This document shows, piece by piece, positions 167 through 32,036 of a stretch of DNA of 64,000 nt (its first letter is position 1; the number at the start of each line of letters is the position of its first letter). Below the pieces are notes generated by a model. The model was given only the letters and a program-made list of their open reading frames with translations, was not told the DNA's origin and did not search any database. The translations under genes were made by a program, and so were the position numbers. The stretch lies in assembly GCA_016432345.1 (NCBI GenBank), contig CP066685.1, positions 368,236-432,235 of the forward strand, read 5' to 3'. This DNA comes from Candidatus Levyibacteriota bacterium (GTDB lineage: Bacteria > Patescibacteriota > Microgenomatia > Levybacterales > UBA12049).

Positions 167-2407
167 ATGAAACAATTTGTTAATAAATTCTGGCCATTTT
201 TTTTTCTATTTTCTGTTTGGTTTGTTTTTGCAAATCCGTATTTTATAAAGGGAAAAGTACTGTATGCTTCAGATTACCAGGTTAATTTTTTTCCTCCTTG
301 GAGCCATTATCAAAAATTCGCTGGGCCGGTTAAAAATAACGCCATGCCAGATGTACATGGACAGATATACCCCTGGAAAAAATTTACCATAGATACCTTT
401 AAGCAACGTCAAATTCCTTTTTGGAACCCGTATAATTTTTCAGGTAATCCTCATTTAGCAAATTATCAATCCGCAGTTCTTTCCCCATTTAACATTTTAT
501 TTTTTATTTTCCCTTTTATTGATGCATGGAGTATTAGCATTTTACTGCAGCCACTTTTAGCAGGACTCTTTATGTATTTTTTTGTCCGACAGCTTATGGT
601 AAGTAAAGTTGGATCGTTAGTAAGCGCTGTTAGTTTTATGTTTTGTGGATTTATTGTTGTATGGATGGCATATGGGACACTTGCGTACGCAATTTTGTAT
701 TTGCCGCTTGCTTTATATGCTATAGAAAAATATTTGCAAACAAAAAAACTGCTTTTTCTTTTTCTTCTTGCAACAACAATACCGTTGTCGTTTTTCTCCG
801 GTCATTTTCAAATAAGCCTATATTTCTTTTTGTCAATTGTTCTTTATATCTTTTTCAAAGGAGTTATCGTGAGAAAACTATACGCTATACGCTATACGCT
901 ATACGCTGTTTTTGTTGGTTTGGTTCTTTCGCTTCCTCAACTTTTACCAGCGCTTGAACTTTACAAGCAAGCAATTCGTAGCGAGCTTTTTTTGCTTAGC
1001 GAAGTTATTCCATTTCAGTACCTAATAACAGGTATAGCTCCAGACTTTTTTGGTAATCCGGTAACTCGTAATGATTGGTTTGGGCATTATGCGGAGTGGG
1101 CATCGTTTATAGGGATATGGCCATTTTTATTTGCAATTTATACTGTGGTAAGAGTAGAAAATAAAAAGAAGTTTTTCTTTGTATTTCTTGGTTTATCAGC
1201 ATTGATCTTTGCAGTGAATAGTGCGCTTTCTCCTGTTATTATTTCCCTTAAAATTCCAGTTTTATCAACAAGTGCTTTTTCTCGAATTATTGTTCTTTTT
1301 AGCTTCTCTTTTGCAGTCCTTTCAGGATTTGGATTTGATGCTCTTTTAAAAGATATAGAAAAAAAAGAAAGGAAAAAAATTATCTCACTTTTGTCAGTAA
1401 CAGCGGTTTTTATGATTATTGTGTGGGTAATAATACTTTTTAGTAAATTATATCCATATGAATGGTTGATTGTAGCTAAAAGGAATTTTATTCTTCCTAC
1501 GATGTTATTTATCGGAGGGTCATTTTTACTTTTTGTATCGATATTCATCAGATCTAAAGTATTTTTACTACTTACTGTTTGTTATTTACTATTTGCTGCT
1601 TCGTTTGATAGTTTACGTTTTGCCCAAAAATGGATGCCATTTGGAAACCGTGAATTTGTTTTTCCCGACGTTCCAATTATTGAAGGAATTAGAAAAAATA
1701 TTGGCTATGGGAGAATCTATGGCAATATCGGCGCAGAGCTTACTACCTATTATGGTTTTCCCTCAATTGAAGGATACGACCCATTATATATTGGAAGATA
1801 CGGTGAATTTATTCGGAGTGCAGACACAGGGGAGTTTCAAAAAGGGGAGCGGTCTGTAGTAAAACTTTCCAGAGGCGGAAAATATACTAATAGAGTGCTT
1901 GATGTTTTAGGGGTTTCGCTTATTTTTAATCCAATCCCGGATACAAACCAAGATTGGGCGTATCCTGTGTGGAAAGATCAAGCGCGAAATATTATTATCT
2001 ATAAAGATGATAAATTTGAGCTTTATAAAAATACCCAAAGTATGTCTCGAGTAAGCCTTTTTTATAATGTTGAAGTGATTAAAAACGATAGAGAAATTAT
2101 AAAAAGATTTTATAGCGATAATTTTGATTTTAAACAAACCTTGCTTCTTGAAGAAAATATAGGGCAGTTTAAGCAAGGCTCAGGTAGCGCGCGCATTTTG
2201 TTTTATACGCCAAATAAAATAGATATAGAAACAACATCAAGTGCTCCTGCAATTCTTTTCTTGTCTGACAATTTCTACCCAGGATGGATAGCGAAAGTGA
2301 ATAAGAAAGAAACAAAAATTTTTAGAGCTGATTATACATTTCGAGCAGTTGTTGTCCCATCTGGAAGATCAACTGTAGAATTTATATATGAAAATTGGAA
2401 TTTTTGA
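167..2407 (+). CDS. YfhO-family polytopic membrane glycosyltransferase (GT-C type), paralog A1
   Basis: 746-aa ORF with a multi-helix hydrophobic body. Motifs FWNPYNFSGNPHLANYQSAVLSPFNILFF, IAPDFFGNP, IEGYDPLY and the C-terminal FLSDNFYPGWIAKVNKKETKIFRADYTFRAVVVP match what I recognise as the YfhO family. Paralogs at 3458 and 18246. Confidence 0.75.
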   Translation: MKQFVNKFWPFFFLFSVWFVFANPYFIKGKVLYASDYQVNFFPPWSHYQKFAGPVKNNAMPDVHGQIYPWKKFTIDTFKQRQIPFWNPYNFSGNPHLANYQSAVLSPFNILFFIFPFIDAWSISILLQPLLAGLFMYFFVRQLMVSKVGSLVSAVSFMFCGFIVVWMAYGTLAYAILYLPLALYAIEKYLQTKKLLFLFLLATTIPLSFFSGHFQISLYFFLSIVLYIFFKGVIVRKLYAIRYTLYAVFVGLVLSLPQLLPALELYKQAIRSELFLLSEVIPFQYLITGIAPDFFGNPVTRNDWFGHYAEWASFIGIWPFLFAIYTVVRVENKKKFFFVFLGLSALIFAVNSALSPVIISLKIPVLSTSAFSRIIVLFSFSFAVLSGFGFDALLKDIEKKERKKIISLLSVTAVFMIIVWVIILFSKLYPYEWLIVAKRNFILPTMLFIGGSFLLFVSIFIRSKVFLLLTVCYLLFAASFDSLRFAQKWMPFGNREFVFPDVPIIEGIRKNIGYGRIYGNIGAELTTYYGFPSIEGYDPLYIGRYGEFIRSADTGEFQKGERSVVKLSRGGKYTNRVLDVLGVSLIFNPIPDTNQDWAYPVWKDQARNIIIYKDDKFELYKNTQSMSRVSLFYNVEVIKNDREIIKRFYSDNFDFKQTLLLEENIGQFKQGSGSARILFYTPNKIDIETTSSAPAILFLSDNFYPGWIAKVNKKETKIFRADYTFRAVVVPSGRSTVEFIYENWNF
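878..907 (+). repeat. Perfect heptanucleotide tandem repeat (CTATACG)x4 + CT inside the YfhO-type CDS
   Basis: Read directly: ctatacg ctatacg ctatacg ctatacg ct. It encodes LYAIRYTLYA. The unit length is not divisible by 3. Confidence 0.95.
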
Positions 2408-3458
2408 TCCATATTTAGATACATTGGGCGGCGGAGAAAAGTATATGCTTGTTCTTGCGCAAGTATTATCGGAAAAACACGATGTGTGTATTTTTTGGGA
2501 TAAAAAAAAAGAAGACGAAATAAAAGCCGGAGCAATGCAGCGCTTTGGATTAAATCTAAATACAATTAATTTCCTAGATAATATTTTTTCAATTAAAACC
2601 CCGTTTCTTAAAAGGCTTTGGGAATTACAAAAATATGACGTTATTGTGTATCTAAGTGATGGAAGTATTCCATTCTCACTTAAAAAAAATTTAATTATCC
2701 ATTTTCAGTTTCCTGTTGAGCGGGTAAAGCCATCTTTGTTAGGTAGAGTAAAATTTTTAAGTGTAAAGCAAGTTATTTGTAATTCTAAATTTACAAAGTC
2801 ATATATTGATAAAAAATTTTATATAGATAGTAAGATTTTATATCCTCCGGTCGATATTATGAAAAATACCACATACAAAAAAGAAAATATTATTCTGCAT
2901 GTTGGGAGGTTTAGTTTAGATACTAAAGGCAACAACTTTAAAAAACAGGATTTTATGATTGATGTGTTTAAGAAAATTGCAACAAAAATAACAGATTGGC
3001 GATTTATTCTTATTATTAGCGTTAAGAAGGAAGACAAAGAAAAAATAAAAAGTTTAAGAGAGCGGGCAAAGGGTTTTCCGATCGAAATTATCGAGAATCC
3101 ATCAAACGAAAAACTTTGGCAGATGTATCAAAAAGCAAAAATTTATTGGCATGCTTCTGGTTTTGGAGAAAACTTAGAAAAAAATCCAGAGAAAGCAGAA
3201 CATTTTGGCATAGCAACTGCCGAGGCAATGGGCGCTGGCGCGGTGCCGGTTGTTATAAATGCCGGAGGCCAGCCAGAAATAGTAATGAATGGGAAGAATG
3301 GATTTCTCTGGGATACAGAAGAAGAATTTATTACCAGAACAAAACAGATTATTTCAAATAATACCCTTTGGCAAGAATTTTCTAAAGAGGGACAACAGGC
3401 GGTTATAAAATTTAATAAAGAACGGTTTTGTGAAGAAATAAAAGGAATTGTCGAATAA
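2388..3458 (+). CDS. Glycosyltransferase family 4 (GT-B fold)
   Basis: 356 aa. The N-terminus is MKIGIFDPYLDTLGGGEKY and the C-terminal signature is EHFGIATAEAMGAGAVPVV (E-x7-E). It overlaps the upstream gene end by 20 nt. Confidence 0.85.
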   Translation: MKIGIFDPYLDTLGGGEKYMLVLAQVLSEKHDVCIFWDKKKEDEIKAGAMQRFGLNLNTINFLDNIFSIKTPFLKRLWELQKYDVIVYLSDGSIPFSLKKNLIIHFQFPVERVKPSLLGRVKFLSVKQVICNSKFTKSYIDKKFYIDSKILYPPVDIMKNTTYKKENIILHVGRFSLDTKGNNFKKQDFMIDVFKKIATKITDWRFILIISVKKEDKEKIKSLRERAKGFPIEIIENPSNEKLWQMYQKAKIYWHASGFGENLEKNPEKAEHFGIATAEAMGAGAVPVVINAGGQPEIVMNGKNGFLWDTEEEFITRTKQIISNNTLWQEFSKEGQQAVIKFNKERFCEEIKGIVE

Positions 3459-5683
3459 TGAAAGTAAAGAAGTTCATGCCAATTATTTTTTTAACAGTGT
3501 TTGTTGTGATTTTTTTTAAGGCTTTTTTTCTGCAAAATAAATTACCAATTCCTGCAGATACTATTATTGGACTCTACCATCCTTTCCGCGACCTTTATGC
3601 TAAGCAGTATCCTCGCGGCATTCCTTTTAAAAATTTTTTAATTACCGATCCAGTTAGGCAGCAATATCCCTGGCGGCAGCTTGCCATATCTTTAGAAAAA
3701 AAAATTCAGCTTCCGCTCTGGAATCCTTATAATGCAGCAGGAGCGCCGCTTTTGGCAAATTTCCAAACTGCGGCGTGGTATCCATTTAATATCTTATTTT
3801 TTATTTTCCCATTTTCTTTTGCTTGGTCGGTTCTTGTTGTATTACAGCCGTTGCTTGGGGGAGTATTTTTGTATTTTTACCTTCGGCAGTTATTTATTAA
3901 TAAATGGGGTAGTATACTTGGGGCAATTGCGTTTTCTTTTTCGGGTTTTAGTATTGCATGGCTTGAGTGGAATACGATAGGACATGCAATGTTATGGTTG
4001 CCTTTATTACTTTTATCTATAGATAAAATAGTATTGCGTAATAAACCGCTTATTTGGTCTGTGGTTTTTCTTTTTTCACTTTGCTCATCTTTTTTTGCTG
4101 GACATCTGCAGACATTTTTTTACCTTTTTTTGATTACGCTTACGTATTTTATTGTTCGTTGGATACAAAACAGGAGAGATAAAAAAATAATTTCTTTATT
4201 CATTATTCTTTATTCATTATTCTTTATTGTCACAGCAATACAATGGATTCCCACTCTGCAATTTGTTGGGGAGAGCGCGCGTAGCATTGACCAAGCAGAT
4301 TGGCAAAAAGAAGGATGGTTTATCCCATGGCAACATCTTTTACAATTTGTGGCTCCAGATTTTTTTGGAAATCCTACGACGCTAAATTACTGGGGGGTGT
4401 GGAATTACGCGGAGTTTATTGGCTACGTTGGAATTTTTCCTCTAATTATGGCCTTGTATGCCCTTTTTTTTCGCCGCGACAAAAAAACACTTTTTTTTGG
4501 TACATTTCTTTTTTTATCTTTAATCTTTTCATTGCCAACCTTTTTTGCCAAAATTCCATATTTATTTAATATCCCCTTTTTGTCAACCGCCCAGCCAACC
4601 AGATTGTTATTTATTACAGATTTTTCTTTAGCAGTACTTTGCGCATTAGGATTTGATTACTTTCTTCGTCATAAAAAAGGAATATTGTCTGCAATAAGTT
4701 TTATTGGCATTGTTTTTGTCGGAGCTTGGCTTTTTGCTTCAACTCAAAGTCTTGCCGTGGCAAAGCAAAACCTATTTTTGCCGTCATTTATCTTTGTTAG
4801 CGCGTCATCTTTACTTATTTTTCTTTGGAAATTATCAAAAATAAATCAACGCATCATTATAATGATATATATCATTATAGTTGGTATAACAGTTTTTGAT
4901 TTACTAAGATTCGGTCAAAAGTTTACTCCTATTACTAATAAAGAATATCTCTTTTCACAATCATCAGCTATTTCTTTTTTACAGCAACAGAAAGGATATT
5001 TTAGGATTATGACAACAGATGATCGTATATTGCCACCAAATTTCTCCACTATTTATAGATTACAAAGCATAGATGGATATGATCCTTTGTATCTACTGCG
5101 TTATGGAGAACTTATTGCCGCATCAGAACGAGGAAAACCCGATATTTCTCCACCTTTTGGTTTCAATCGAATCATTACGCCACACGTTTACAACTCAAAA
5201 ATTATTGATCTTCTTGGAGTAAAATATATTTTGAGTCTTTCAGATATTAAATCGCCAAAACTCGTAAAAGTTTTTCAGGAGGGGCAAACCAGAATATACG
5301 AGAATACCAGCGCATTACCCCGAACGTTTTTTGTGTCTAAGATTCATCAGGGATTTGTAAAGGAAGATCTAATAAAGTTTTTATTTAATGACAGTGTTAA
5401 TTTTCGTGATGAAGCTATTTTAGAGGGAGAAGGTGGATTTCCGATGAGTAAAGAGGTAGAAAAAAATAAAGCAGAAATAATACAATATACAGAAAATAGT
5501 ATTAGTATTAAAACCGAAAATTTTGGACAGTCCTTTCTTGTTTTGACAGATATGTATTATCCTGCTTGGCACGCATATATTGATGGTAAAGAAACAAAAA
5601 TATATAGAACAAATTATACTTTTAGAGGAGTATTTGTACCAAATGGTAAGCACATTATAGAGTTTAATATTGGTTTATTATGA
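3458..5683 (+). CDS. YfhO-family polytopic membrane glycosyltransferase, paralog A2
   Basis: 741 aa. Motifs LWNPYNAAGAPLLANFQTAAWYPFNILFF, VAPDFFGNP, IDGYDPLY and the C-terminal LTDMYYPAWHAYIDGKETKIYRTNYTFRGVFVP. TAATG stop/start overlap with the upstream GT4. Confidence 0.75.
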   Translation: MKVKKFMPIIFLTVFVVIFFKAFFLQNKLPIPADTIIGLYHPFRDLYAKQYPRGIPFKNFLITDPVRQQYPWRQLAISLEKKIQLPLWNPYNAAGAPLLANFQTAAWYPFNILFFIFPFSFAWSVLVVLQPLLGGVFLYFYLRQLFINKWGSILGAIAFSFSGFSIAWLEWNTIGHAMLWLPLLLLSIDKIVLRNKPLIWSVVFLFSLCSSFFAGHLQTFFYLFLITLTYFIVRWIQNRRDKKIISLFIILYSLFFIVTAIQWIPTLQFVGESARSIDQADWQKEGWFIPWQHLLQFVAPDFFGNPTTLNYWGVWNYAEFIGYVGIFPLIMALYALFFRRDKKTLFFGTFLFLSLIFSLPTFFAKIPYLFNIPFLSTAQPTRLLFITDFSLAVLCALGFDYFLRHKKGILSAISFIGIVFVGAWLFASTQSLAVAKQNLFLPSFIFVSASSLLIFLWKLSKINQRIIIMIYIIIVGITVFDLLRFGQKFTPITNKEYLFSQSSAISFLQQQKGYFRIMTTDDRILPPNFSTIYRLQSIDGYDPLYLLRYGELIAASERGKPDISPPFGFNRIITPHVYNSKIIDLLGVKYILSLSDIKSPKLVKVFQEGQTRIYENTSALPRTFFVSKIHQGFVKEDLIKFLFNDSVNFRDEAILEGEGGFPMSKEVEKNKAEIIQYTENSISIKTENFGQSFLVLTDMYYPAWHAYIDGKETKIYRTNYTFRGVFVPNGKHIIEFNIGLL
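4192..4228 (+). repeat. 14-nt tandem repeat (TTCTTTATTCATTA) x2.6 inside YfhO-type paralog A2
   Basis: Read directly: ttctttattcatta ttctttattcatta ttctttatt. It encodes SLFIILYSLFFI. The unit is 2x7 nt and is not divisible by 3. It lies at the position homologous to the CTATACG tract of paralog A1. Confidence 0.9.
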
Positions 5684-6579: not shown

Positions 6580-6581
6580 TC

Positions 6582-7292
6582 ATGAAGTTATCAATTATAA
6601 TTCCTGTTTTTAACGAAGAAAAAACAATAACGCAGGTGTTGGAGAAAGTTGTTTTATTAAAACTTCCTGGTGTAGAAAAAGAGATTATTGTTGTTGATGA
6701 CGGATCTACAGATAGTTCAAAGTTTAAAATTCAAAATTTAAAGTTTATGGAAATAAAGTTTTTTTCTCACGAAAAAAATCAGGGGAAAGGCGCGGCGGTG
6801 AAGACAGGAATAAAAAATGCCACAGGAGATTACATTATAATTCAAGATGCAGATTTAGAATACAATCCTAAAGATATACAAAAGCTAATGGAACCAATTT
6901 TAAATGGAAAAGCAAAAGTTGTTTATGGAACAAGGTTAAAACGATTGCCAAATTTTTCAAAAGATGAAAAAAAATTAAGATTTTTTGTTCATTATCTTGG
7001 CAATAAATTTTTAAGTTTATTGACAAGTATACTGTATAGGCAGTGGATTACAGACATGGAGACAGGTTATAAACTTATACCAAGGGGTGTCTTACAAAAA
7101 ATCACACTTCATGCTAGAAGTTTTGATTTTGAGCCAGAAATTACCGCCAAAATTCTAAAAAACCATATAAAAATTCTTGAAATTCCAATTTCTACAAATC
7201 CAAGAGGATATGACCAAGGTAAAAAACTTAATACGGTAAAGGATGGTATTTTTGCTTTTATGACTCTGCTTAAATATAGGTTTTTTGAATAA
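6582..7292 (+). CDS. GT2, polyprenyl-phosphate sugar synthase-like (DPM1/GtrB/CsbB/ArnC type)
   Basis: 236 aa. Motifs LSIIIPVFNEEKTI, VVDDGSTDSS, GKGAAVKTGIKNATGDYIIIQDADLEYNP. The small size and motif set are typical of Pren-P-hexose synthases. It sits directly upstream of a GT-C gene. Confidence 0.7.
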   Translation: MKLSIIIPVFNEEKTITQVLEKVVLLKLPGVEKEIIVVDDGSTDSSKFKIQNLKFMEIKFFSHEKNQGKGAAVKTGIKNATGDYIIIQDADLEYNPKDIQKLMEPILNGKAKVVYGTRLKRLPNFSKDEKKLRFFVHYLGNKFLSLLTSILYRQWITDMETGYKLIPRGVLQKITLHARSFDFEPEITAKILKNHIKILEIPISTNPRGYDQGKKLNTVKDGIFAFMTLLKYRFFE

Positions 7293-20612: not shown

Positions 20613-22331
20613 ATGAGATTTATTGCTTCTGTTAAAAGAGTATCGTTTTGGAATGTTATAATTTTTGGTTTTATTGTTTTTGCATTTTTTGTAAATGCCT
20701 TGCACGAAAGCTATCCAGACGAGTTCGATAATATCTTAGGTGGTTGGTATATTTTGCAGGGAAGACTTCCTTATATTGGATTTTTTACCCATCACGGTCC
20801 TGTTCCATATTTTATTGCTTCCATAGTTGCATTATTTAGCGGAGAATCTTTTGTCCGTTTTCGTATTTTTTATGCCTTTTTTCTTCTTTTTACTTTTGGG
20901 AGTATTTATTGGATTCTCAAAAAAACTATAGGAAAAGAGCATATTTTGTTTTATCCGCTGTTTATAGCATTTGTAGGAATAGAGTCAACTTATTATTGGA
21001 TGCAAATGCTTCTGGCCGATAATATTGCTGCCATCGCTTTTTTACCAGTCTATGCAATTATTTTACTAAAGGCATTTTATAAAAAATCTATCACAATACA
21101 AGATGTTGGACTAGTTGCAATTTTTTCCTCAATTGGATTATATTCGTCACTTACATATTCGTATCTTTTTATTATCGTCTCTTTTTCTATTCTATTTCTT
21201 TATTTTAAAGAGAATGGATTTCATCGACCGTTTTTTTCGCTGCGCAATGCCCGTCCTTTTATTATTCTTGCTGTTCCTCATCTGTTATTTTTTTTGTATT
21301 TATTAATAACAGGCAGTTTGCCAGATTACTTTTATCAAAATTACGTCTTTAATACGAAATACTATATATATAACTATCCTAGATCTCCCGAGTCTTCATT
21401 TATTAACCCTGTTCGGTATGCAATTCTTATTGCTCATTGGTTTTTTGTAAATTTCTATACGCTTTTAATCGGAGTTAAAACATTTGATTTTTCATTTCCG
21501 GTAAATATGACGATGGCTATGGGAGATACGTCGCTTTTTTTATATCTCTTATTAAGGAAACGTTATAAGCTTGCTGTTTTTACCCTTTTGGTTATGGTTT
21601 TTACCAATATTCGTAGCAATCCCATTCAGTCGGGTGAAAAGGATTATCAAGCTGGCGTATATAATTTTCTTTCGTTTTTTAATATTTTCTTTGTTTTGCC
21701 AGTACTTTGTAAATCAATAAGTGATGCAAAAGAAGAAACTGGAAGAAAAGTTGGTTATGGTTTTCTTATGGTGCTGACTGCTCTGTATTTCTTTTTTGGA
21801 TTTTCACATTTGTTGTTTAAATTCAATGAAAAAACCGTCTCCAAATATATGGGAGATCAAGCTCTTATTTATGATCGCCCCCAGCTTTCGCCAATTATTA
21901 ATAGTATCTTAACAAAAGAAGAGTATGCTTGGATTGGACCTTTTGAGTTTGAAGATCTTTTTTATCTTCATACCAAAATTCCTTCCAAATACCATATTCT
22001 TATTCCAGGAGTAGCAGAATCAGATAAATTACGTAACGAGATGCTGACAGATTTTGTGAAAAACAAACCCGTTATTGTCATATTAGAAACGCGTTTTACC
22101 TACTTAGGTAATGGGATTAATAACTACGGGGTTTTCTTTTTTGATTTTCTTAATAAAAATTATATAACATTGCTTAATTATAAAAATGAGAAAATAGCTT
22201 ATCGTTCGGTTGCTCCTGTAACATCGAGGGTGGATATTGAGACAAAAATGTTTATTCGAAAAGACAAGGTTAAGGAAGTGGTTCAGAAACTGCTCCGAAA
22301 TAATTATATAAAAGAAATTAATTCAAAATGA
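20613..22331 (+). CDS. Polytopic membrane protein with a C-terminal soluble domain, possible GT-C (unclassified)
   Basis: 572 aa. AGGA lies upstream of the ATG. The first loop is HESYPDEFDNILGGWYILQGRLPYIGFFTHHGPVPYF (an acidic DE motif). Many hydrophobic helices are followed by a polar tail of about 170 aa. No family recognised. Confidence 0.4.
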   Translation: MRFIASVKRVSFWNVIIFGFIVFAFFVNALHESYPDEFDNILGGWYILQGRLPYIGFFTHHGPVPYFIASIVALFSGESFVRFRIFYAFFLLFTFGSIYWILKKTIGKEHILFYPLFIAFVGIESTYYWMQMLLADNIAAIAFLPVYAIILLKAFYKKSITIQDVGLVAIFSSIGLYSSLTYSYLFIIVSFSILFLYFKENGFHRPFFSLRNARPFIILAVPHLLFFLYLLITGSLPDYFYQNYVFNTKYYIYNYPRSPESSFINPVRYAILIAHWFFVNFYTLLIGVKTFDFSFPVNMTMAMGDTSLFLYLLLRKRYKLAVFTLLVMVFTNIRSNPIQSGEKDYQAGVYNFLSFFNIFFVLPVLCKSISDAKEETGRKVGYGFLMVLTALYFFFGFSHLLFKFNEKTVSKYMGDQALIYDRPQLSPIINSILTKEEYAWIGPFEFEDLFYLHTKIPSKYHILIPGVAESDKLRNEMLTDFVKNKPVIVILETRFTYLGNGINNYGVFFFDFLNKNYITLLNYKNEKIAYRSVAPVTSRVDIETKMFIRKDKVKEVVQKLLRNNYIKEINSK

Positions 22332-24263
22332 TCCGGTTTTGATTCTGATGGAGGTGAGTATTTGATCCACTGCCTTTTCTATTTCTTTTGCGCGGTCATT
22401 TTTTATTTGTGACGGGCTGTTTGGTAAAAGTATAGCATGGAAAATATAAGATGCGGCTAGAAATGATTCGTAAGATGTCCCGCACCAATATTTTTCTTTG
22501 GTAACGCACCTTTTTTTTTGATAATTTTTTCCCAAAGTATTCATTTTAGAAACAATAGCGTTTGTAGAGAGCGAATTATTTTGAGCGGTGTTTGTGATAT
22601 TTAAAAGAGACAATGTTACTTCATCAGAGTACACAGATATTTTTTTGGGATATTCTTCTTTTACTTGCCAATACGACGGATACTCAAAGGCAATTGGAAA
22701 CCCGCTTTTTATAAAAGCTCTTTTTAACATCTCGTCAAGATATAAGTTGTACATTTGTTGATAAATTGATCTAAAACCCGGGATATCATTTGCTTTTTGT
22801 CTAAGCAAAATCATTGTTGGCAAATTTATTTTTTGTCTAAAATAAGCTGTTAATTCAATTTGCGTTAATATATCATCAGGAGTATCTTTTAATTTTGCTT
22901 CCAGCAAAGTTAGTTTTTTTTCAGTTTCTTGTGTTGGGTATAGCATTTTGGCAAGAGATGGATTTTGTGTCATTGCCGAAGGCGGCACGAAATATGTAAT
23001 TATGATCTCTGGATAATTCTTTGAGCTTATAAAACCGGCAAGGGCTTTTTTACTATTTTTCTGGTTTTGGGAAAAAATGCCGCCATAATCACCCCTTGTT
23101 CCATTGTGAATTTTAAGAAATGAAATAAAGGCTAAATTAAAAATGCCGTAGGCGATAATAAGAGAAATAAAAAGTATGGAAAATAAAATTTTTGACAATT
23201 TAATTTTTTTTAGAAAATAAACGAATGTATAGGATAAGAAAAGGAAAAGAAGAGGAAGCGCTGTAATATAGTAGTGCATAAGCGGTTCAACCCTGAAAAA
23301 GTAATACATAATAGATACCGCAATGGTTGTATAAATAAGAAAACGAGATTTCTTGTTTTGTTTATAGAAAAGGCACATGCCAATCGGTAAAAGTAAATAT
23401 GTAAGATAAAAAAGATATCGTATGATGTAGGTAAAAGGAAATGATTGTTTAAACACTAAAAAATCTTCTGTGCCAAATACAAAATTAAAATAGCCTGTTC
23501 CTAAAATTTGCAAGTTTCGCATAAAAACTGTTGCAGATGAAACAGCGGCAACTTTTTTTGCGGCAGCAGCAATTGCAAAACAATCAGGACAGCCGTTGTG
23601 TATTTCGTAATACAAAAAAGGAAGAAGCGGCAATAACCCAAGTAAGAATCCTAAAAAAGCATATTGAAGGGAAAATGACGATCGTTTTTCCACTAACAAA
23701 AAAATAGTAAGTGGCGCAATAAAAAATAAAGTGGATTGGTGAAGCTGTATTAGCAAAAGCGATAAGAATATGTATAGCGCCCAATACTTTTTTTTATTAT
23801 CAAAAACAATTACGTGGCTGCTCCATAAAAGACCAATTAGAAATGGCATAATTAGATCAGGCGCCCAAATTTTTCGAGAAAAAAGAATAGCCCAAGGCGA
23901 GACTGCCAAAAAGACTGCCGTAATAAAACCAGTAAGCGTTCCGTAGTAGCGTTTTATAAAAAGAAAAATTAAACCGATTGTTAAAGTGTTAACAAATCCA
24001 ATAAAAAAAGTTATGCCGATTGGATTAGTCGTAAAAAAAACAATAGGGAAGAGTAAATAATTAAAAAGCGGCGGATTTGGAATGCCCACGCTTGATACGG
24101 TTCCTAAAGCCGCAAAAGGATGTCCAAATAGCGGACGGGCTGCTAAGAATACATTAAGAGCTTCGTCTACTTTAAATTCAATCAGATCAAGGTTGCTAAG
24201 GCGAAAATATCCAGCCAGGCTAACAATAGCAATAAAGATAAAAATTGTATTTCTTTTCGACAT
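22323..24263 (-). CDS. ArnT/GT39-like GT-C membrane protein with a large C-terminal soluble domain (divergent paralog)
   Basis: 646 aa on the minus strand. Motifs YFRLSNLDLIEFKVDEALNVFLAARPLFGHPF and VSPWAILFSRKIW, then about 250 polar C-terminal residues. It overlaps the 3' end of 20613..22331 by 9 nt (convergent). Confidence 0.6.
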   Translation of the reverse strand: MSKRNTIFIFIAIVSLAGYFRLSNLDLIEFKVDEALNVFLAARPLFGHPFAALGTVSSVGIPNPPLFNYLLFPIVFFTTNPIGITFFIGFVNTLTIGLIFLFIKRYYGTLTGFITAVFLAVSPWAILFSRKIWAPDLIMPFLIGLLWSSHVIVFDNKKKYWALYIFLSLLLIQLHQSTLFFIAPLTIFLLVEKRSSFSLQYAFLGFLLGLLPLLPFLYYEIHNGCPDCFAIAAAAKKVAAVSSATVFMRNLQILGTGYFNFVFGTEDFLVFKQSFPFTYIIRYLFYLTYLLLPIGMCLFYKQNKKSRFLIYTTIAVSIMYYFFRVEPLMHYYITALPLLFLFLSYTFVYFLKKIKLSKILFSILFISLIIAYGIFNLAFISFLKIHNGTRGDYGGIFSQNQKNSKKALAGFISSKNYPEIIITYFVPPSAMTQNPSLAKMLYPTQETEKKLTLLEAKLKDTPDDILTQIELTAYFRQKINLPTMILLRQKANDIPGFRSIYQQMYNLYLDEMLKRAFIKSGFPIAFEYPSYWQVKEEYPKKISVYSDEVTLSLLNITNTAQNNSLSTNAIVSKMNTLGKNYQKKRCVTKEKYWCGTSYESFLAASYIFHAILLPNSPSQIKNDRAKEIEKAVDQILTSIRIKTGSF

Positions 24264-24306
24264 ACTCTGTTTATATTATACGCTGTTTTTTTTGTATAAT
24301 AGAGGA
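24264..24306. promoter_or_regulatory. 43-bp divergent intergenic region with back-to-back -10 elements
   Basis: On the + strand, an extended -10 TGTATAAT at 24293-24300 lies exactly 6 nt before the GTG at 24307. On the - strand, TATAAT (+ coordinates 24275-24280) lies 11 nt before the ATG at 24263. A T8 tract (24286-24293) lies between them. The call is based on sequence pattern only. Confidence 0.3.
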
Positions 24307-25959
24307 GTGAGGTATTTTCTATTAGTTTGCATAATCATTTTAGCCATATTTCTTCGTTTTTTTCAGCTTGGACAAAATCCGTCATCACTCACCTGGGACG
24401 AAGTTGCATGGGGTTATAATGCCTATACTCTTGGTATAGACGGAAGAGACGAGTTTGGCCGTTTTTTACCGCTTGATTACCTTGAATCTTTTGGTGATTT
24501 TAAGCCGCCTCTTTATGCTTACCTTGTGATAATTCCTGTCAAAATATTCGGTCTTAATGAGTTTGCAGTACGTTTTCCATCTGCGTTTTTTGGCGTTTTA
24601 ACTGTATTTGCAACATATTTTTTAACTAAAGAGTTATTTAATAAATCACCTTATTCATTAAAAATTAGAAATTTGAAATTAGAAATTTCAGAAGTAGCAG
24701 CGCTGCTTTTGGCGGTTTCGCCCTGGCATGTCAATCTTTCTCGGGCGGCTTTTGAGGCAAATATTTCCACATTTTTTATTGTAGTTGGGGTTTTATTTTT
24801 CCTTTTATGGAGAAACAAAAATTATGGTTATGCATTGCCAACTTCGATAGTTTCATTTGTCCTTTCTCTTTATGTGTTTAATACTGCGCGTGTAGTTTCA
24901 CCATTGTTATTTCTTGTTTTGGCCATTGTATCATTGAAACAGTTTTGGAATCGCAAAATACAGGTAGCTATTGCAGTTATTGTTGGGGGTATAATTCTTT
25001 TTCCTCTTTTAAAATTTCTTTTTACACCTCAAGCAAGCCTTCGTTTTCAAGAAGTAAACATTTTTTCCGATATTGGGATAGTTCAGAGAGCAAATACCTA
25101 TATAGAAAATGATGGCAATACCACAATTTCAAAAATTATTCATAATCGCCGATGGGGTTATACAATTGAATTTTTACGTCATTATTTTGATCATTTTTCC
25201 GCTCGTTTCCTTTTTCTTCGAGGAGATGGAAATCCAAAATTTTCCACCCAAGATGTTGGAAGTATGTATTTATGGGACCTACCATTTTTTATTATTGGAG
25301 TACTTTTCCTTTTTCGCTATCGCCCTGGGCATTGGTGGTTAGTGCCGGTGTGGTTGCTGATAGGCATTGTTCCTGCGGCAACAGCAAGAGAAACACCACA
25401 TGCATTACGTATAGAAACGACTCTGCCAACATTTCAGATATTTGTTGCTTTTGGCATTGTTATTTTTTATCAGTGGATTTTTTCGATTAAAAATAGATTA
25501 AAAAGGAGAACAGTGATCAATGTCAGTATAGCGCTTCTCTTTTTACAAATTTTATACTATCTTCATGGATATTACATACATTATCCAAGAGAATATTCAG
25601 GCCAGTGGCAATATGGTTACAAAGAGGCAATAGCATACATACAAAATGTTGAAAAAAACTATGATGCGATTTATTTCACCGATAGTCTTGGAAGACCGCA
25701 TATATACTATGCATTTTATGCAAAAATTTATCCATCATTGTATAGAAAAGATGCAGTAGTTTGGAGAGAAATGCCTTATGGTTTTGTGCATGTAGATAAA
25801 ATAGGAAAAGTATATTTTATGAGAGATTTAATTCCAAAAGATACAAAAAAGAGAAATCTCTATATTGATGATCCAAGAAATGTTCCGTCAGACGCAAAAA
25901 TACTAAAAAATTTTAAGCTGCTTAACGGCGAAGACAGTTTAATTGCTTATACTAAATAG
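24307..25959 (+). CDS. PMT_2/GT39-type GT-C glycosyltransferase, paralog B3
   Basis: The track ORF (24082) extends 225 nt antisense into the neighbouring gene. The only plausible in-frame start after that gene is GTG 24307 (VRYFLLVCIIILAIFLRFFQLG), which gives an N-terminus the same length as the paralogs. Motifs TWDEVAWGYNAYTLGIDGRDEFGRFLPLDYLESFGDFKPPLY, VRFPSAFFGVLTV, VSPWHVNLSR and ETPHALR. Confidence 0.7.
   Translation: MRYFLLVCIIILAIFLRFFQLGQNPSSLTWDEVAWGYNAYTLGIDGRDEFGRFLPLDYLESFGDFKPPLYAYLVIIPVKIFGLNEFAVRFPSAFFGVLTVFATYFLTKELFNKSPYSLKIRNLKLEISEVAALLLAVSPWHVNLSRAAFEANISTFFIVVGVLFFLLWRNKNYGYALPTSIVSFVLSLYVFNTARVVSPLLFLVLAIVSLKQFWNRKIQVAIAVIVGGIILFPLLKFLFTPQASLRFQEVNIFSDIGIVQRANTYIENDGNTTISKIIHNRRWGYTIEFLRHYFDHFSARFLFLRGDGNPKFSTQDVGSMYLWDLPFFIIGVLFLFRYRPGHWWLVPVWLLIGIVPAATARETPHALRIETTLPTFQIFVAFGIVIFYQWIFSIKNRLKRRTVINVSIALLFLQILYYLHGYYIHYPREYSGQWQYGYKEAIAYIQNVEKNYDAIYFTDSLGRPHIYYAFYAKIYPSLYRKDAVVWREMPYGFVHVDKIGKVYFMRDLIPKDTKKRNLYIDDPRNVPSDAKILKNFKLLNGEDSLIAYTK
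24662..24689 (+). repeat. Imperfect heptamer array (AAATTAG AAATTTG AAATTAG AAATTTC), equivalent to a 14-mer x2, in GT39 paralog B3
   Basis: Read directly. It encodes KIRNLKLEI. It lies at the same loop as the perfect AAATTGG array of paralog B4. Confidence 0.85.
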
Positions 25960-25962
25960 CTC

Positions 25963-27648
25963 ATGTTTAAAAAAATTATTATATTTATTTTTATTGTTTT
26001 TATCGCAAGTGTTTTGCGTTTGTGGCAATTAGGAAATATTCCTCCCTCTCCAGATTGGGATGAAGCAGCGCTTGCTTATAGTGCGTATTCGATTATGCAG
26101 ACTGGAAAGGACGAGTATGGTATTTCTTTTCCTATTATTCTTCGATCGTTTGATGATTACAAACCGGCACTTTACTCATATATAGCAATTCCCTTTATTA
26201 AGATTTTTGGTTTGAATGTTATTGCAATTCGTCTTCCATCTGCTGTTTTTGGCATTACAACTATTATCGCAGTATATTTTTTAATGAAAGAATTGTTTAA
26301 GAATACCACCTTAAAATTGGAAATTGGAAATTGGAAATTGGAAATTCCAGAAGTAGCTATGCTGCTTCTGGCTATTTCCCCATGGCATTTGCAATTTTCC
26401 CGTATCGCTTTTGAATCAAATCTTGGCTTGTCTCTTAATATTTTTGCCATATTTTTATTTGTTAAAGGATTAAAAAAACCAATGCTGCTGCCATTTTCAG
26501 CTTTTTTTCTAGGATTAAGTCTTTATGCTTATCAGAGTGAAAAAGTATTTGTTCCGCTGCTTTGTCTAATTCTTGTTTTGGTGTATAGAAAAACATTTTT
26601 CAGATTGCCCAAAAAATACATAATATTTGCATTTTTTATTGGTATAGCGCTTACAGTTCCTATTGCTTATTACACTTTTACTCAAAAAGCGGCATTAGCC
26701 AGAGCGCAGGGGGTGAGTATTTTTACAGAAAGTACGCCGTTTGTCAAACAATATACAAAAAGAATTGTTATAGACAAAAAAAATCATGACATTTTTGGTT
26801 TTTTTGTTGATAACAGAAGAATAGCTTATGTAAAGGCTGTAATTGACGGATATTTGTCTCATTATAATTTATATTGGCTATTTCTTTCCGGGGATATTTC
26901 CCGTCATCATGCGCCAGAAATGGGTCTTTTGTATCTTTGGGAACTGCCGTTTTTGTTTATAGGAATTTATCAAATGGTATTTGGTTTTTTTCCAAAAAAC
27001 ACTAAATATTTAATTTTTTTGTGGTTTTTTGCCGCTCCAATTCCTGCCTCTGTAACAACTGGCGTGCCGCACGCTGTAAGAACACTCAATTTTTTGCCTA
27101 CTTTTCAGATTTTTATTGCGATAGGACTTATTGCCGCTTTTGCAAAAATATCAAGTATTAAATATCAAGTATTAAATATAATAGGTTTGCGATATACACT
27201 TATTTCCTGTTTTTTGTTAATGTTCACTTTTAATTTTTTGTATTATTTAAATCAATATTTTGTGCAGCAAAACAATTTTTATTCCGAAAGTTGGCAATAT
27301 GGTTATAAAGAAGCAATAGACGATGTAAAAAAGATAGAAAATAGATATCAAAAAGTTATTGTTTCAAATCAGCCTCATTTAGACCAGTCATATATGTTTT
27401 TTCTTTTTTATCTTCAGTATCCACCAAATCTTTACCAGGAGGAAGCAAAGAAAAATAATTCTGGTGGTTTTGCCGAAACGCACCAGTTTGGCAAGTATAT
27501 TTTCCGTCCGATTGTTTGGGAAAACGAAAAAAAAGACGGTAAAACTCTATATGTTGGAAGGCAGGAAGACTTTCACGATTCAGCACATGTTATAAAAAAA
27601 ATTTTCTTTCTTAATGGAAAGGCGGCAATTTCTATAGTTGATGGATAA
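25963..27648 (+). CDS. PMT_2/GT39-type GT-C glycosyltransferase, paralog B4
   Basis: 561 aa. Motifs LWQLGNIPPSPDWDEAALAYSAYSIMQTGKDEYGISFPIILRSFDDYKPALY, IRLPSAVFGITT, ISPWHLQFSR, GVPHAVRT and WQYGYKEAI. Confidence 0.75.
   Translation: MFKKIIIFIFIVFIASVLRLWQLGNIPPSPDWDEAALAYSAYSIMQTGKDEYGISFPIILRSFDDYKPALYSYIAIPFIKIFGLNVIAIRLPSAVFGITTIIAVYFLMKELFKNTTLKLEIGNWKLEIPEVAMLLLAISPWHLQFSRIAFESNLGLSLNIFAIFLFVKGLKKPMLLPFSAFFLGLSLYAYQSEKVFVPLLCLILVLVYRKTFFRLPKKYIIFAFFIGIALTVPIAYYTFTQKAALARAQGVSIFTESTPFVKQYTKRIVIDKKNHDIFGFFVDNRRIAYVKAVIDGYLSHYNLYWLFLSGDISRHHAPEMGLLYLWELPFLFIGIYQMVFGFFPKNTKYLIFLWFFAAPIPASVTTGVPHAVRTLNFLPTFQIFIAIGLIAAFAKISSIKYQVLNIIGLRYTLISCFLLMFTFNFLYYLNQYFVQQNNFYSESWQYGYKEAIDDVKKIENRYQKVIVSNQPHLDQSYMFFLFYLQYPPNLYQEEAKKNNSGGFAETHQFGKYIFRPIVWENEKKDGKTLYVGRQEDFHDSAHVIKKIFFLNGKAAISIVDG
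26314..26346 (+). repeat. Perfect heptanucleotide tandem repeat (AAATTGG)x4 + AAATT inside GT39 paralog B4
   Basis: Read directly: aaattgg aaattgg aaattgg aaattgg aaatt. It encodes KLEIGNWKLEI. The unit is not divisible by 3. Confidence 0.95.
27146..27179 (+). repeat. 14-nt tandem repeat (AAATATCAAGTATT) x2.4 inside GT39 paralog B4
   Basis: Read directly: aaatatcaagtatt aaatatcaagtatt aaatat. It encodes KISSIKYQVLNI. The unit is not divisible by 3. Confidence 0.9.
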
Positions 27649-32034: not shown

Positions 32035-32036
32035 TA

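What the first reader, a model, noticed from the sequence alone, without database searches (positions are those of the whole stretch)
878..907. Perfect (CTATACG)x4 tract in YfhO-type gene A1, with nearby stops in both shifted frames
Seen in sequence: ctatacg x4 + ct lies at about codons 238-247 of 746 and encodes LYAIRYTLYA, just before the conserved LPALE helix. The unit has no stop in any sense frame (codon cycle CTA TAC GCT ATA CGC TAT ACG) but contains TAG on the antisense strand.

By manual reading, gaining one unit shifts translation into the frame of the supplied alt-frame ORF 643..957, with a stop at 955-957. Losing one unit reaches TAA at 1023-1025.

Inference: a one-unit change would truncate the enzyme after about one third of its length.
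Basis: partly seen in the sequence, partly recalled or inferred. Interest (0 to 1): 0.7.

Follow-up and report, generated by a model that had tools for sequence, protein, structure and literature searches.

The report
Frameshift-switch heptamer tracts in glycosyltransferase genes
A perfect four-copy 7-base repeat sits inside a membrane glycosyltransferase gene of an uncultivated groundwater bacterium (Levybacteria), is one of at least four such tracts in the same sugar-coat gene cluster, and most likely acts as a slippage-prone on/off switch, although no off allele has yet been seen.

Summary
(CTATACG)x4+CT lies at 878-907, at codon 238 of a 746-aa YfhO/GT-C gene. Adding one unit stops translation at 955-957; losing one stops it at 1023-1025.

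The tract is not unique. The window's only three perfect tandem arrays are all heptamers inside GT-C genes. One, at 41043-41074, has the same unit in a different GT-C family at the homologous helix. A 14-mer array lies at the same alignment column in a YfhO paralogue.

The strongest evidence is comparative. A 71%-identical orthologue carries a perfect (CTTTTAT)x4+CT at the same codon 238, encoding a different peptide. Three other species keep decayed CTATACG tracts of identical length. So the repeat architecture persists, not the peptide, which implies repeated unit gain and loss.

Best reading: a slipped-strand frameshift switch, one of several in a surface-glycan locus of a Levybacteria (CPR) genome.

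Caveats: the tract has only four units. No length polymorphism or out-of-frame allele was found. Heptamer repeats are generically over-represented in bacteria, and the same unit also occurs in-frame in housekeeping genes of other phyla.

Verdict: a new member of a known kind, of moderate interest.

The parts
878..907 (+). The finding: perfect (CTATACG)x4+CT tract, codons 238-247 of gene A1, encoding LYAIRYTLYA
167..2407 (+). Gene A1, 746 aa, a YfhO-family GT-C-fold membrane glycosyltransferase (QQG41086.1). The tract encodes the first 10 residues of helix 238-266.
   Evidence: Pfam PF09586. AF2 model pLDDT 89.6. Foldseek hits to STT3/ArnT/AftD/PglB. Accession.
955..957 (+). Stop codon reached after gain of one unit (265-aa product)
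1023..1025 (+). TAA reached after loss of one unit (283-aa product)
41043..41074 (+). Second perfect (CTATACG)x4.6 tract, codon 212, phase 0, of a different GT-C gene. It shares 34 identical bases (AAAA + 30) with the A1 tract and has the same reading register.
40410..42038 (+). GT-C gene, 542 aa (Pfam PTPS_related PF10131; QQG40359.1), carrying the second tract. +/-1 unit gives 240/223 aa.
32682..32711 (+). Decayed tract CTAATCG CTATACG CTATATG CTTATTG CT at the homologous column of paralogue 31944..33686
4192..4228 (+). Perfect (TTCTTTATTCATTA)x2.6 array (two diverged heptamers per unit) in YfhO paralogue 3458..5683, at the same alignment column as the A1 tract. +/-1 unit gives 313/270 aa.
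26314..26346 (+). Perfect (AAATTGG)x4.7 tract, codon 118 of PMT_2-type GT-C gene 25963..27648. It is an insertion relative to three paralogues. +/-1 unit gives 152/128 aa.
24657..24687 (+). Decayed tract AAATTAG AAATTTG AAATTAG AAATTTC at the homologous column of adjacent paralogue 24082..25959
6714..6747 (+). Decayed heptamer tract (TCAAAGT TTAAAAT TCAAAAT TTAAAGT) at codon 44 of GT2 gene 6582..7292. The orthologue in another Levybacterium has a perfect (AATTCAA)x4.6 at the same codon.

Best explanation
The tract is a real, slippage-prone heptanucleotide simple-sequence repeat inside a non-essential surface-glycan enzyme gene. It works as a reversible frameshift switch.

With four units the 746-aa YfhO-type GT-C glycosyltransferase is made. 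Slipped-strand mispairing at replication that adds or removes one or two units shifts the frame. The product is then a 258-290-aa stump that lacks the C-terminal transmembrane helices and the periplasmic domain. A later slip restores the frame.

It is one of at least four such in-frame non-triplet tracts in a roughly 64-kb glycosylation locus of a complete 762-kb Candidatus Levybacteria (CPR) genome. Together these tracts would let a clonal population vary its surface glycans combinatorially.

Shown: the tract exists, the frame consequences hold, tracts recur at homologous positions, and the repeat architecture survives while the unit turns over. Inferred: an elevated switching rate, reversibility in vivo, and an adaptive role.
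For: 1. Frame arithmetic. Four tracts (878, 4192, 26314, 41043) are all in the ON frame, and every +/-1 or +/-2 unit change truncates the product.

2. Architecture is conserved, not the peptide. Orthologue P0002 (71% identical; L210) has a perfect (CTTTTAT)x4+CT at codon 238, phase 0, encoding LLSFIFYLLS instead of LYAIRYTLYA. Changing all four units in concert requires repeated unit gain and loss, each step passing through an out-of-frame state, or conversion.

3. Decayed tracts persist. Three further species keep CTATACG-type tracts of exactly 30 nt at the same codon. These are 87-90% identical to A1's tract, while the 60-nt flanks are only 53-70% identical. In the two closest orthologues the site is 23-47% identical against 62-77% for the flanks. 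This is replacement, not gradual drift.

4. Homologous columns in other GT-C families carry heptamer tracts with other units. The PTPS_related paralogue in another species has CTCTCAG CTCTCAG CTTTCAG CTCTCAA CT. The YfhO paralogue has a 14-mer array. In the PMT_2 loop, orthologues encode KLEIGNWKLEI, QFSIFNFQFSI (the reading of a CAATTTT repeat) and other variants, or have no insert. A GT2 gene has a perfect AATTCAAx4.6 in the orthologue.

5. The site is the most variable stretch of the N-terminal domain: 14 consecutive columns have no majority residue. It is the start of a transmembrane helix after a 3-residue loop, so many repeat-encoded peptides are tolerated.

6. The gene class fits. It has a GT-C fold and lies in a locus of about 22 GT-C-like genes plus GT2, GT4, a flippase and sugar-modifying enzymes.

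7. CTATACG arrays do change copy number between related populations elsewhere: L126 has 4.6 units against 3.6 in L148, and L138 has 3 against 4 in L150.

8. Intragenic heptanucleotide tracts that cause frameshifts are documented in Haemophilus influenzae (PMC2651432).
Against: - There are only four units. Experimentally studied phase-variable tracts are usually much longer (13-38 heptamers at hmw; PMC2651432), so the switching rate may be low.
- No length variant or out-of-frame allele was found. All 120 orthologues are gap-free at the site. All DNA orthologues have 30 nt there. The n+/-1 products are not in the protein collection. An exact-flank scan of JGI metagenomes found nothing.
- Several orthologues carry decayed tracts, so perfection is not required.
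- Heptamer repeats are generically over-represented in prokaryotes, which has been attributed to a polymerase slippage bias (Mrazek et al. 2007, as summarised in PMC4679880 and PMC4692102).
- The same unit occurs in-frame in housekeeping genes of other phyla (DapF, GcpE, PGI, NAD(P)HX dehydratase), where it can only be tolerated rather than used as a switch.
- Enrichment in GT-C genes cannot be shown within this window, because such genes fill about half of it.
Confidence: 0.6

Rival explanations
1. Neutral by-product. Bacterial replication favours slippage of 7-nt units, and the tract arose and persists only because it lies in a weakly constrained start of a transmembrane helix. With four units it switches too rarely to matter and has no adaptive role. 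Frameshift alleles are simply deleterious and are purged.
For: - A heptamer-specific excess is seen in unrelated genomes: 38 other heptamer arrays, against 1-10 for other unit lengths, in 830 kb. The excess is also known from the literature.
- (CTATACG)3 is no more frequent than permuted heptamers in viral contigs: 5 against 2, 10 and 5.
- In-frame tracts occur in DapF, GcpE and PGI elsewhere.
- The tract is short, and no length polymorphism was found.
- Decayed tracts occur in several orthologues.
Against: - If frameshift alleles were always purged, a whole-array change of unit (CTATACG to CTTTTAT) with length and position preserved would be hard to reach.
- Tract DNA is conserved well above its flanks, synonymous sites included, in three species.
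- Perfect tracts recur at the same columns in several gene families.
Confidence: 0.28
2. Ectopic conversion or recombination. The identical 34-nt stretches at 874-907 and 41039-41072 are kept identical by short-patch gene conversion between GT-C paralogues. The tracts matter as recombination substrates: in-register crossover would delete 40 kb and fuse the two genes. They would not act as slippage switches.
For: - There are 34 identical bases in the same codon register in two genes that are otherwise only 32% identical over 152 aa.
- Array-bearing orthologues are not monophyletic in rough NJ trees of either family, as expected if tracts are copied between genes.
Against: - Identity stops at the tract edges.
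- Conversion does not explain tracts with private units (AAATTGG, the 14-mer, CTTTTAT, CTCTCAG).
- A 40-kb deletion is irreversible and was not observed.
- 34 nt is near the lower limit for homologous recombination (general knowledge).
Confidence: 0.07
3. Selection on the encoded peptide. LYAIRYTLYA would be a functional helix motif, and the DNA periodicity would be incidental.
For: - Similar peptides occur in several orthologues of both families.
- The PTPS_related family consensus KKYLILNTLYII shares Y, I, T, L, Y and I with the repeat-encoded peptide.
Against: - The orthologue with a perfect CTTTTAT tract encodes an unrelated peptide, LLSFIFYLLS.
- Most orthologues have unrelated residues here.
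- Perfect 7-nt periodicity constrains synonymous positions, which peptide selection would not do.
Confidence: 0.03
4. Assembly or sequencing artefact.
For: Short-read contigs break inside the arrays.
Against: - Independent Logan assemblies of several runs are 100% identical to the window up to and into the tracts.
- The deposited complete genome encodes the same intact proteins.
- Orthologous tracts exist in other species.
Confidence: 0.01

Closest known systems
Simple-sequence-repeat contingency loci in glycosyltransferase genes of host-adapted pathogens. Examples are Haemophilus influenzae lic2A/lgtC/lex2A tetranucleotide tracts and Neisseria lgt poly-G tracts (own knowledge; review PMC11868660 was listed but not read).
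   Same: A non-triplet tandem repeat lies inside the 5' third of a glycosyltransferase ORF. Gain or loss of a unit shifts the frame and truncates the enzyme. Several such genes occur per genome.
   Different: - The unit is 7 nt and there are only about 4 copies.
- The enzymes are polytopic GT-C membrane proteins, and the tract encodes part of a transmembrane helix.
- The organism is an uncultivated groundwater CPR bacterium, not a pathogen.
- Switching has not been demonstrated.
Haemophilus influenzae heptanucleotide tracts: hmw1A/hmw2A promoter (TGAAAGA)13-38, and the intragenic (AATTTTG)14 in hmw1A of strain PittAA with a frameshift (PMC2651432).
   Same: The unit length is seven, and the intragenic example causes a frameshift.
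   Different: Those tracts are 3 to 10 times longer and vary between strains. Here the length is fixed at about 4.3 units in every orthologue examined.
Campylobacter jejuni poly-G phasome in capsule, LOS and flagellar-glycosylation genes (PMC6321876 and PMC8437040, listed; own knowledge).
   Same: Many tracts are concentrated in surface-glycan loci, allowing combinatorial ON/OFF states.
   Different: Those are mononucleotide tracts with experimentally measured switching.
Generic heptamer LSSRs of prokaryotes. These include Mrazek et al. 2007, cyanobacterial STRR, Xanthomonas/Nostoc GGGAATC repeats (PMC4692102) and TAACTGA repeats upstream of start codons in Beggiatoaceae, Cyanobacteria and Bacteroidetes (PMC4679880).
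   Same: Perfect short arrays of 7-nt units occur, the same unit appears at several loci and in several phyla, and some copies lie in-frame inside ORFs. The CTATACG arrays found in other phyla behave like this: they are mostly intergenic and often end 0-8 nt before an ATG.
   Different: The window's tracts are all intragenic, sit at positions conserved among orthologues and paralogues, and are frame-critical.
YfhO/GT-C enzymes that glycosylate teichoic acids (Bacillus subtilis YfhO with CsbB; Listeria GtlB/YfhO). This comparison rests on own knowledge and was not checked here.
   Same: A1 matches Pfam YfhO and has a GT-C fold, and GT2 genes of the CsbB/GtrB type lie nearby in the locus.
   Different: The substrate and acceptor in Levybacteria are unknown. 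No repeat-based switching is reported for those enzymes, to my knowledge.

Membership tests
SSR-mediated phase-variable (contingency) locus | Uninterrupted tandem repeat whose unit length is not a multiple of three, inside an ORF or its promoter | tested here: met
   Perfect 7-nt x4.3 tract at codons 238-247
SSR-mediated phase-variable (contingency) locus | Unit gain or loss toggles the gene between a full-length and a truncated product | tested here: met
   In silico: n=4 gives 746 aa; n=2, 3, 5 and 6 give 258-290 aa; n=1 and 7 are in frame
SSR-mediated phase-variable (contingency) locus | Tract length differs within a population or between close strains, including out-of-frame alleles | tested here: inconclusive
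   - No variant was found among orthologues, in the metagenome scan or in the protein look-up.
- All four ends of the two long short-read contigs of the same population fall inside tracts. For the two CTATACG tracts this is expected from the shared 34-mer.
- Reads could not be examined.
SSR-mediated phase-variable (contingency) locus | Evidence of recurrent slippage at the locus (concerted evolution or turnover of units) | tested here: met
   A perfect (CTTTTAT)x4+CT lies at the same codon in a 71%-identical orthologue. A CTCTCAG-type tract lies at the homologous site of a paralogue in another species.
SSR-mediated phase-variable (contingency) locus | Measured high, reversible switching rate | not testable with these tools
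   Needs read-level genotyping or a reporter assay
YfhO family / GT-C fold glycosyltransferase | Match to the family profile above the curated cut-off | tested here: met
   PF09586: 55.9 bits against a cut-off of 28.5, E=3.5e-15
YfhO family / GT-C fold glycosyltransferase | Polytopic N-terminal membrane domain with a GT-C fold plus a C-terminal soluble domain | tested here: met
   AF2 model with pLDDT 89.6 and pTM 0.89. Best PDB matches are STT3, ArnT, AftD and PglB, with probability 1.00.
YfhO family / GT-C fold glycosyltransferase | Lipid-linked sugar donor and glycosyl transfer activity | not testable with these tools
   No biochemical data for this protein
Intergenic heptamer repeats of the TAACTGA / STRR type | Arrays lie in intergenic DNA, typically a few nucleotides upstream of start codons | tested here: not met
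   All window tracts are 44-245 codons inside ORFs. CTATACG arrays in other phyla do fit this pattern.
Programmed -1 ribosomal frameshift site | Slippery heptamer of the form X XXY YYZ followed by a structure | tested here: not met
   CTATACG has no XXX or YYY run in any register (read directly from the sequence)

The most novel reading that the evidence does not exclude
Levybacteria, and perhaps other Microgenomates, keep a position-conserved set of about 4-unit heptamer tracts across many glycosylation genes (YfhO, PTPS_related, PMT_2, GT2). These tracts would be maintained by selection for mutability itself. The unit sequence drifts and is re-homogenised, while tract length, codon position and frame are preserved. 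The result would be a combinatorial surface-glycan phasome in an uncultivated, small-genome episymbiont lineage, where such bet-hedging has not been described.
Probability: 0.35. Interest if true: 0.72.

Novelty: new member of a known kind. Interest (0 to 1): 0.55.

Why it matters
CPR/Patescibacteria are thought to live attached to hosts and to be exposed to phages. Their genomes devote large loci to surface glycosylation, yet nothing is known about how they vary their surface.

If these tracts switch, a 762-kb genome could generate at least 16 glycan states from four tracts without any regulator. That would extend contingency-locus biology from pathogens to environmental ultra-small bacteria. 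My literature searches found no paper linking phase variation with Patescibacteria, apart from one incidental co-mention.

The comparative signature found here is a perfect tract at the same codon, with a different unit and a different peptide. It can be used to detect selected hypermutable tracts from single assemblies when read data are unavailable. It also makes the question directly testable, because public read sets of this same population exist.

Tried and rejected
1. A 'CTATACG is a special, cross-phylum element'. However, permuted heptamers are about as frequent in viral contigs (5 against 2, 10 and 5). Genomes with such arrays are rich in heptamer arrays of all kinds. The heptamer excess is already in the literature. 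I rejected this as an explanation of the window tract.

2. Origin of the tract from a conserved IRxT(L/F)Y motif, since ATA CGC NAT ACG is a proto-repeat. The register fits the PTPS_related family. In the YfhO family the motif is out of phase with the tract by 2 nt, and the alignment is gap-free. So it does not explain A1.

3. Exact-flank search for length variants of A1 in JGI metagenomes: 0 hits.

4. Exact look-up of the eight predicted n+/-1 products: none present. This is a weak negative, because short-read contigs break at the tracts.

5. A search for the repeat string in 8 million papers: no hit.

6. A1's apparent absence from the protein database briefly suggested a pseudogene annotation. 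In fact it is present as QQG41086.1, hidden behind a 36-aa cluster representative.

7. Contig breaks as proof of heterogeneity. The exact break positions (882, 26323) do not match simple n+/-1 alleles when the 31-mers are traced by hand. I therefore left this unexplained.

8. Ribosomal frameshifting: the unit is not a slippery heptamer.
Full report
OBSERVATION.

Window 878-907 reads CTATACG four times followed by CT, without a mismatch (TRF 4.3 copies, 100% matches). It begins at codon 238, phase 0, of ORF 167..2407 (746 aa) and encodes LYAIRYTLYA, just before VFVGLVLSLPQLLPALE.

- Five units give a 265-aa product ending at window 955-957.
- Three units give 283 aa, ending at the TAA at 1023-1025.
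- Two and six units give 258 and 290 aa.
- One and seven units stay in frame.

The tract is not a chance event. Shuffles give an expectation of 0.00 for a two-unit match. Thirty Markov simulations of the window produced no perfect heptamer array of 3 or more units, against three observed.

WHAT THE GENE IS.

- A1 matches Pfam YfhO (55.9 bits against a cut-off of 28.5).
- It is deposited as QQG41086.1, 'YfhO family protein', on a 762,565-nt contig of a Candidatus Levybacteria MAG.
- An AlphaFold model built from 62 homologues is confident (pLDDT 89.6, pTM 0.89). Its best solved-structure matches are STT3, ArnT, AftD and PglB, which is the GT-C fold.
- In the model, residues 238-247 are the first third of a long helix (238-266). 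This helix follows a three-residue loop after helix 214-234.
- The preceding residues are basic (VRK), and the helix runs into the conserved LPQLLPALE segment.
- In the alignment of 62 homologues this is the least conserved stretch of the N-terminal domain: 14 consecutive columns have no majority residue.

THE LOCUS.

The window is one large surface-glycan locus.
- It holds about 22 polytopic GT-C-like genes: three YfhO, three PTPS_related, about nine PMT_2, one GT87, and several without a Pfam match that are paralogous to these.
- It also holds GT2 and GT4 transferases, a Polysacc_synt flippase, a DegT aminotransferase, epimerases/dehydratases and a methyltransferase.

THE TRACT IS ONE OF SEVERAL.

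The window contains only three perfect tandem arrays of 3 or more units (unit length 2-12). All three are heptamers and all lie in GT-C genes.

- The second array, at 41043-41074, has the same unit, CTATACG x4.6. It lies at codon 212, phase 0, of ORF 40410..42038. That gene belongs to a different Pfam family (PTPS_related) and is only 32% identical to A1 over 152 residues.
- The two tracts share 34 identical bases and the same reading register.
- A paralogue of that gene (31944..33686) has a decayed copy, CTAATCG CTATACG CTATATG CTTATTG, at the same alignment column.
- The YfhO paralogue 3458..5683 carries a perfect (TTCTTTATTCATTA)x2.6 array at the same column as A1's tract.
- The third perfect heptamer array, (AAATTGG)x4.7 at 26314-26346, lies at codon 118 of PMT_2 gene 25963..27648. 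The adjacent paralogue has a decayed version at the same column, and three other paralogues lack these 9-10 residues.
- GT2 gene 6582..7292 has a decayed tract at codon 44. Its orthologue in another Levybacterium has a perfect (AATTCAA)x4.6 at the same codon.

All four perfect tracts in the window are in the ON frame. Every change of one or two units truncates the product.

COMPARATIVE EVIDENCE.

Among the 120 best A1 homologues (53-73% identity) there is no gap at the site. I read the DNA of seven orthologues.

Four orthologues, from three species, carry CTATACG-type tracts of exactly 30 nt at the same codon:
- L119/L120: CTATCCG CTATACG CTATACT TTATACG CT
- L121: CTTTACG CTATCCG CTATACG CTATCCG CT
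- L122: CTATACG CTATTCC CTATACG CTATTTG CT
- L123 is more decayed.

These tracts are 87-90% identical to A1's, whereas the 60-nt flanks are 53-70% identical.

The decisive case is P0002. It is 71% identical and comes from a run of the same groundwater sample series. Its site is GAT CTTTTAT CTTTTAT CTTTTAT CTTTTAT CT. This is a perfect four-unit tract plus CT at codon 238, phase 0, encoding LLSFIFYLLS, and +/-1 unit gives 285/283 aa.

The closest orthologue, P0001 (73% identical), shows only weak 7/14-nt periodicity. Thus identity at the site is either far above the flanks or far below them (23-47% against 62-77%). This is the signature of array turnover rather than gradual substitution.

The same pattern holds in the other families.
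- A PTPS_related paralogue in GCA_023245555.1 has CTCTCAG CTCTCAG CTTTCAG CTCTCAA CT at the homologous column.
- About ten orthologues of the 40410 gene encode KLYAIRY-type peptides, scattered among orthologues with the family consensus KKYLILNTLYII.
- In the PMT_2 family the site is an indel-hypervariable loop. About half of 120 orthologues have no insert. The others encode repeat-type peptides such as KLEVGNWKLEI, KFEIRNLKLEM or QFSIFNFQFSI, the last being the cyclic reading of CAATTTT. A few have longer inserts.

Array-bearing orthologues are not monophyletic in rough NJ trees.

INTERPRETATION.

What is conserved is the DNA architecture: four heptamers plus two bases, at a fixed codon and in frame. 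The encoded peptide is not conserved.

Replacing every unit of a four-unit array needs many unit gains and losses, or conversion from another array. With a 7-nt unit, each single gain or loss passes through a frameshifted, truncated allele. Lineages must therefore repeatedly have carried OFF alleles and returned to ON.

That is the behaviour of a slipped-strand contingency locus. It also fits a dispensable enzyme embedded among many paralogues.

The position explains why only n=4 is seen. The tract encodes the first turns of a transmembrane helix, so a 7-residue insertion or deletion (+/-3 units) would probably not be tolerated, while almost any hydrophobic 10-mer is.

I therefore rate 'reversible frameshift switch, one of several in a glycan locus' as the best explanation, at 0.6. 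The steps shown are the tract, the frame consequences, positional recurrence and unit turnover. The steps inferred are a high switching rate, reversibility in vivo and benefit.

EVIDENCE AGAINST, AND RIVALS.

- The tract has only four units. Studied heptanucleotide switches in Haemophilus have 13-38 (PMC2651432).
- I found no length variant. An exact-flank pattern with a variable gap found nothing in JGI metagenomes. The eight predicted n+/-1 products are absent from the protein collection.
- Heptamer arrays are generically over-represented in prokaryotes, possibly through a polymerase slippage bias (Mrazek et al. 2007, as summarised in PMC4679880 and PMC4692102). I saw the same excess: in 830 kb around other CTATACG arrays there are 38 further heptamer arrays, against 1-10 arrays for each other unit length.
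- (CTATACG)3 occurs in at least 118 places in many phyla, but most are intergenic.
- In viral contigs it is no more frequent than permuted heptamers.
- In other phyla, in-frame copies lie in DapF (two genomes, same position), GcpE, PGI and NAD(P)HX dehydratase. They also lie in DUF2298, Wzy_C and PMT_2 membrane enzymes. Tolerance alone can therefore explain some intragenic tracts.

The neutral-by-product rival gets 0.28. Conversion or recombination between the two identical tracts gets 0.07. It would explain the shared unit and the patchy phylogeny, but not the private units. Peptide selection is essentially refuted. An artefact is excluded by independent assemblies that are 100% identical to the window and by the orthologous tracts.

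A HINT OF HETEROGENEITY.

- Short-read (k=31) contigs of the same population are bounded by tracts. L202 spans window 882-4224, running from the CTATACG tract to the 14-mer array.
- Contig SRR12113419_30130 starts at 26323, inside the AAATTGG tract. By arithmetic (locus end at 40529 plus 539 further bases) it ends near 41068, inside the second CTATACG tract.
- Breaks at the two CTATACG tracts are expected from their shared 34-mer.
- Breaks at the other two tracts are not explained by the reference sequence. They could reflect length variants or further copies elsewhere in the genome.
- The exact break points do not fit simple n+/-1 alleles, so I leave this open.
- The four tract-bearing proteins are known only from the NCBI genome. 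Neighbouring genes of similar size are recovered intact from 3-6 short-read contigs.

COMPARISON WITH WHAT IS KNOWN.

In mechanism this is an ordinary SSR contingency locus, as in Haemophilus, Neisseria and Campylobacter glycosyltransferase genes. An intragenic heptanucleotide example exists ((AATTTTG)14 in hmw1A; PMC2651432).

It differs in four respects:
- unit number (about 4);
- enzyme class (GT-C membrane enzymes, with the tract inside a transmembrane helix);
- organism (a CPR bacterium from groundwater);
- conservation of tract position and length with turnover of the unit.

It is not a member of the intergenic heptamer-repeat class (TAACTGA, STRR), because the tracts are intragenic. It is not a ribosomal slippery site.

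Literature searches found no paper linking phase variation or SSRs with CPR/Patescibacteria beyond one incidental mention, and none containing the repeat string.

VERDICT.

- This is a new member of a known kind.
- Interest is 0.55.
- The most novel reading not excluded is a selected, position-conserved multi-gene glycan phasome in Levybacteria (probability about 0.35).

Noticed in passing
L001-L118 (genome-contig hits), e.g. L009, L048, L054, L063, L080, L098: (CTATACG)3-11 arrays occur in many phyla, including Omnitrophota, Planctomycetota, Patescibacteria and Bacteroidota isolates such as Croceitalea dokdonensis with 9.4 units. About 100 of 120 are not inside long ORFs. Fifteen of 120 end 0-8 nt before the ATG of an ORF of at least 100 aa on the sense strand, against 1 of 120 on the other strand. 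Twenty-three of 120 have phased inverted units (TAGCGTA, TAGCGGA, TAGCGTT) within 70 nt, giving a hairpin-like arrangement with an A/T-rich loop. This resembles the TAACTGA repeats of PMC4679880.
   Followed up: partly
L070:1521-2348 and L096:3613-4428; also L089, L087, L027: In-frame CTATACG tracts sit inside housekeeping genes of other phyla. Examples are diaminopimelate epimerase at the same residue (~220) in two different genomes, GcpE/IspG, NAD(P)HX dehydratase and phosphoglucose isomerase.
   Followed up: partly
L126 vs L148; L138 vs L150 (metagenome contigs): Orthologous intergenic CTATACG arrays differ by one unit between related populations: 4.6 (with one mismatch) against 3.6 units, and 3 against 4 units, with otherwise near-identical flanks.
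   Followed up: no
window 882, 4224, 26323, ~41068: The ends of the two long k=31 Logan contigs of this same population all fall inside tandem arrays. The break positions at the AAATTGG and 14-mer arrays are not explained by the reference sequence.
   Followed up: partly
window 26290-26360 and orthologues P0250-P0368: The loop after KELFK in PMT_2-type GT-C enzymes is an indel hotspot across Levybacteria. Inserts range from none, through 9-11 residues of heptamer-encoded peptide with various units, to about 40 residues containing KSEIRNTKQI-like low-complexity sequence.
   Followed up: partly
L119:8374-8394 and about 30 nt downstream; L122:1-29 and 6564-6593; L123:7066-7091: Other Levybacteria glycan loci carry further perfect heptamer arrays (AATATCA twice in one GT2 gene, ATATCAA, GTTATTT, TTTTTGC). 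Three of them coincide with contig ends.
   Followed up: no
window 1-64000: The whole window is one glycosylation locus with about 22 polytopic GT-C-like genes in several paralogue families. That is an unusually large share of a 762-kb genome.
   Followed up: partly
window 24082-24300 and 22323-24263: ORF 24082..25959 overlaps the convergent ORF 22323..24263 by about 180 nt. It aligns to its paralogues only from residue ~77-88, so its listed start is probably too far upstream.
   Followed up: no
L124, L128, L175, L179, L181 vs L145: A lipoprotein gene (signal peptide ...ILAGCLLTFLPGCA) is preceded by a CTATACG array of 4.0 units in five contigs. A sixth contig has 4.6 units and a completely different upstream flank, so the array lies at a junction of rearranged sequence.
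   Followed up: no
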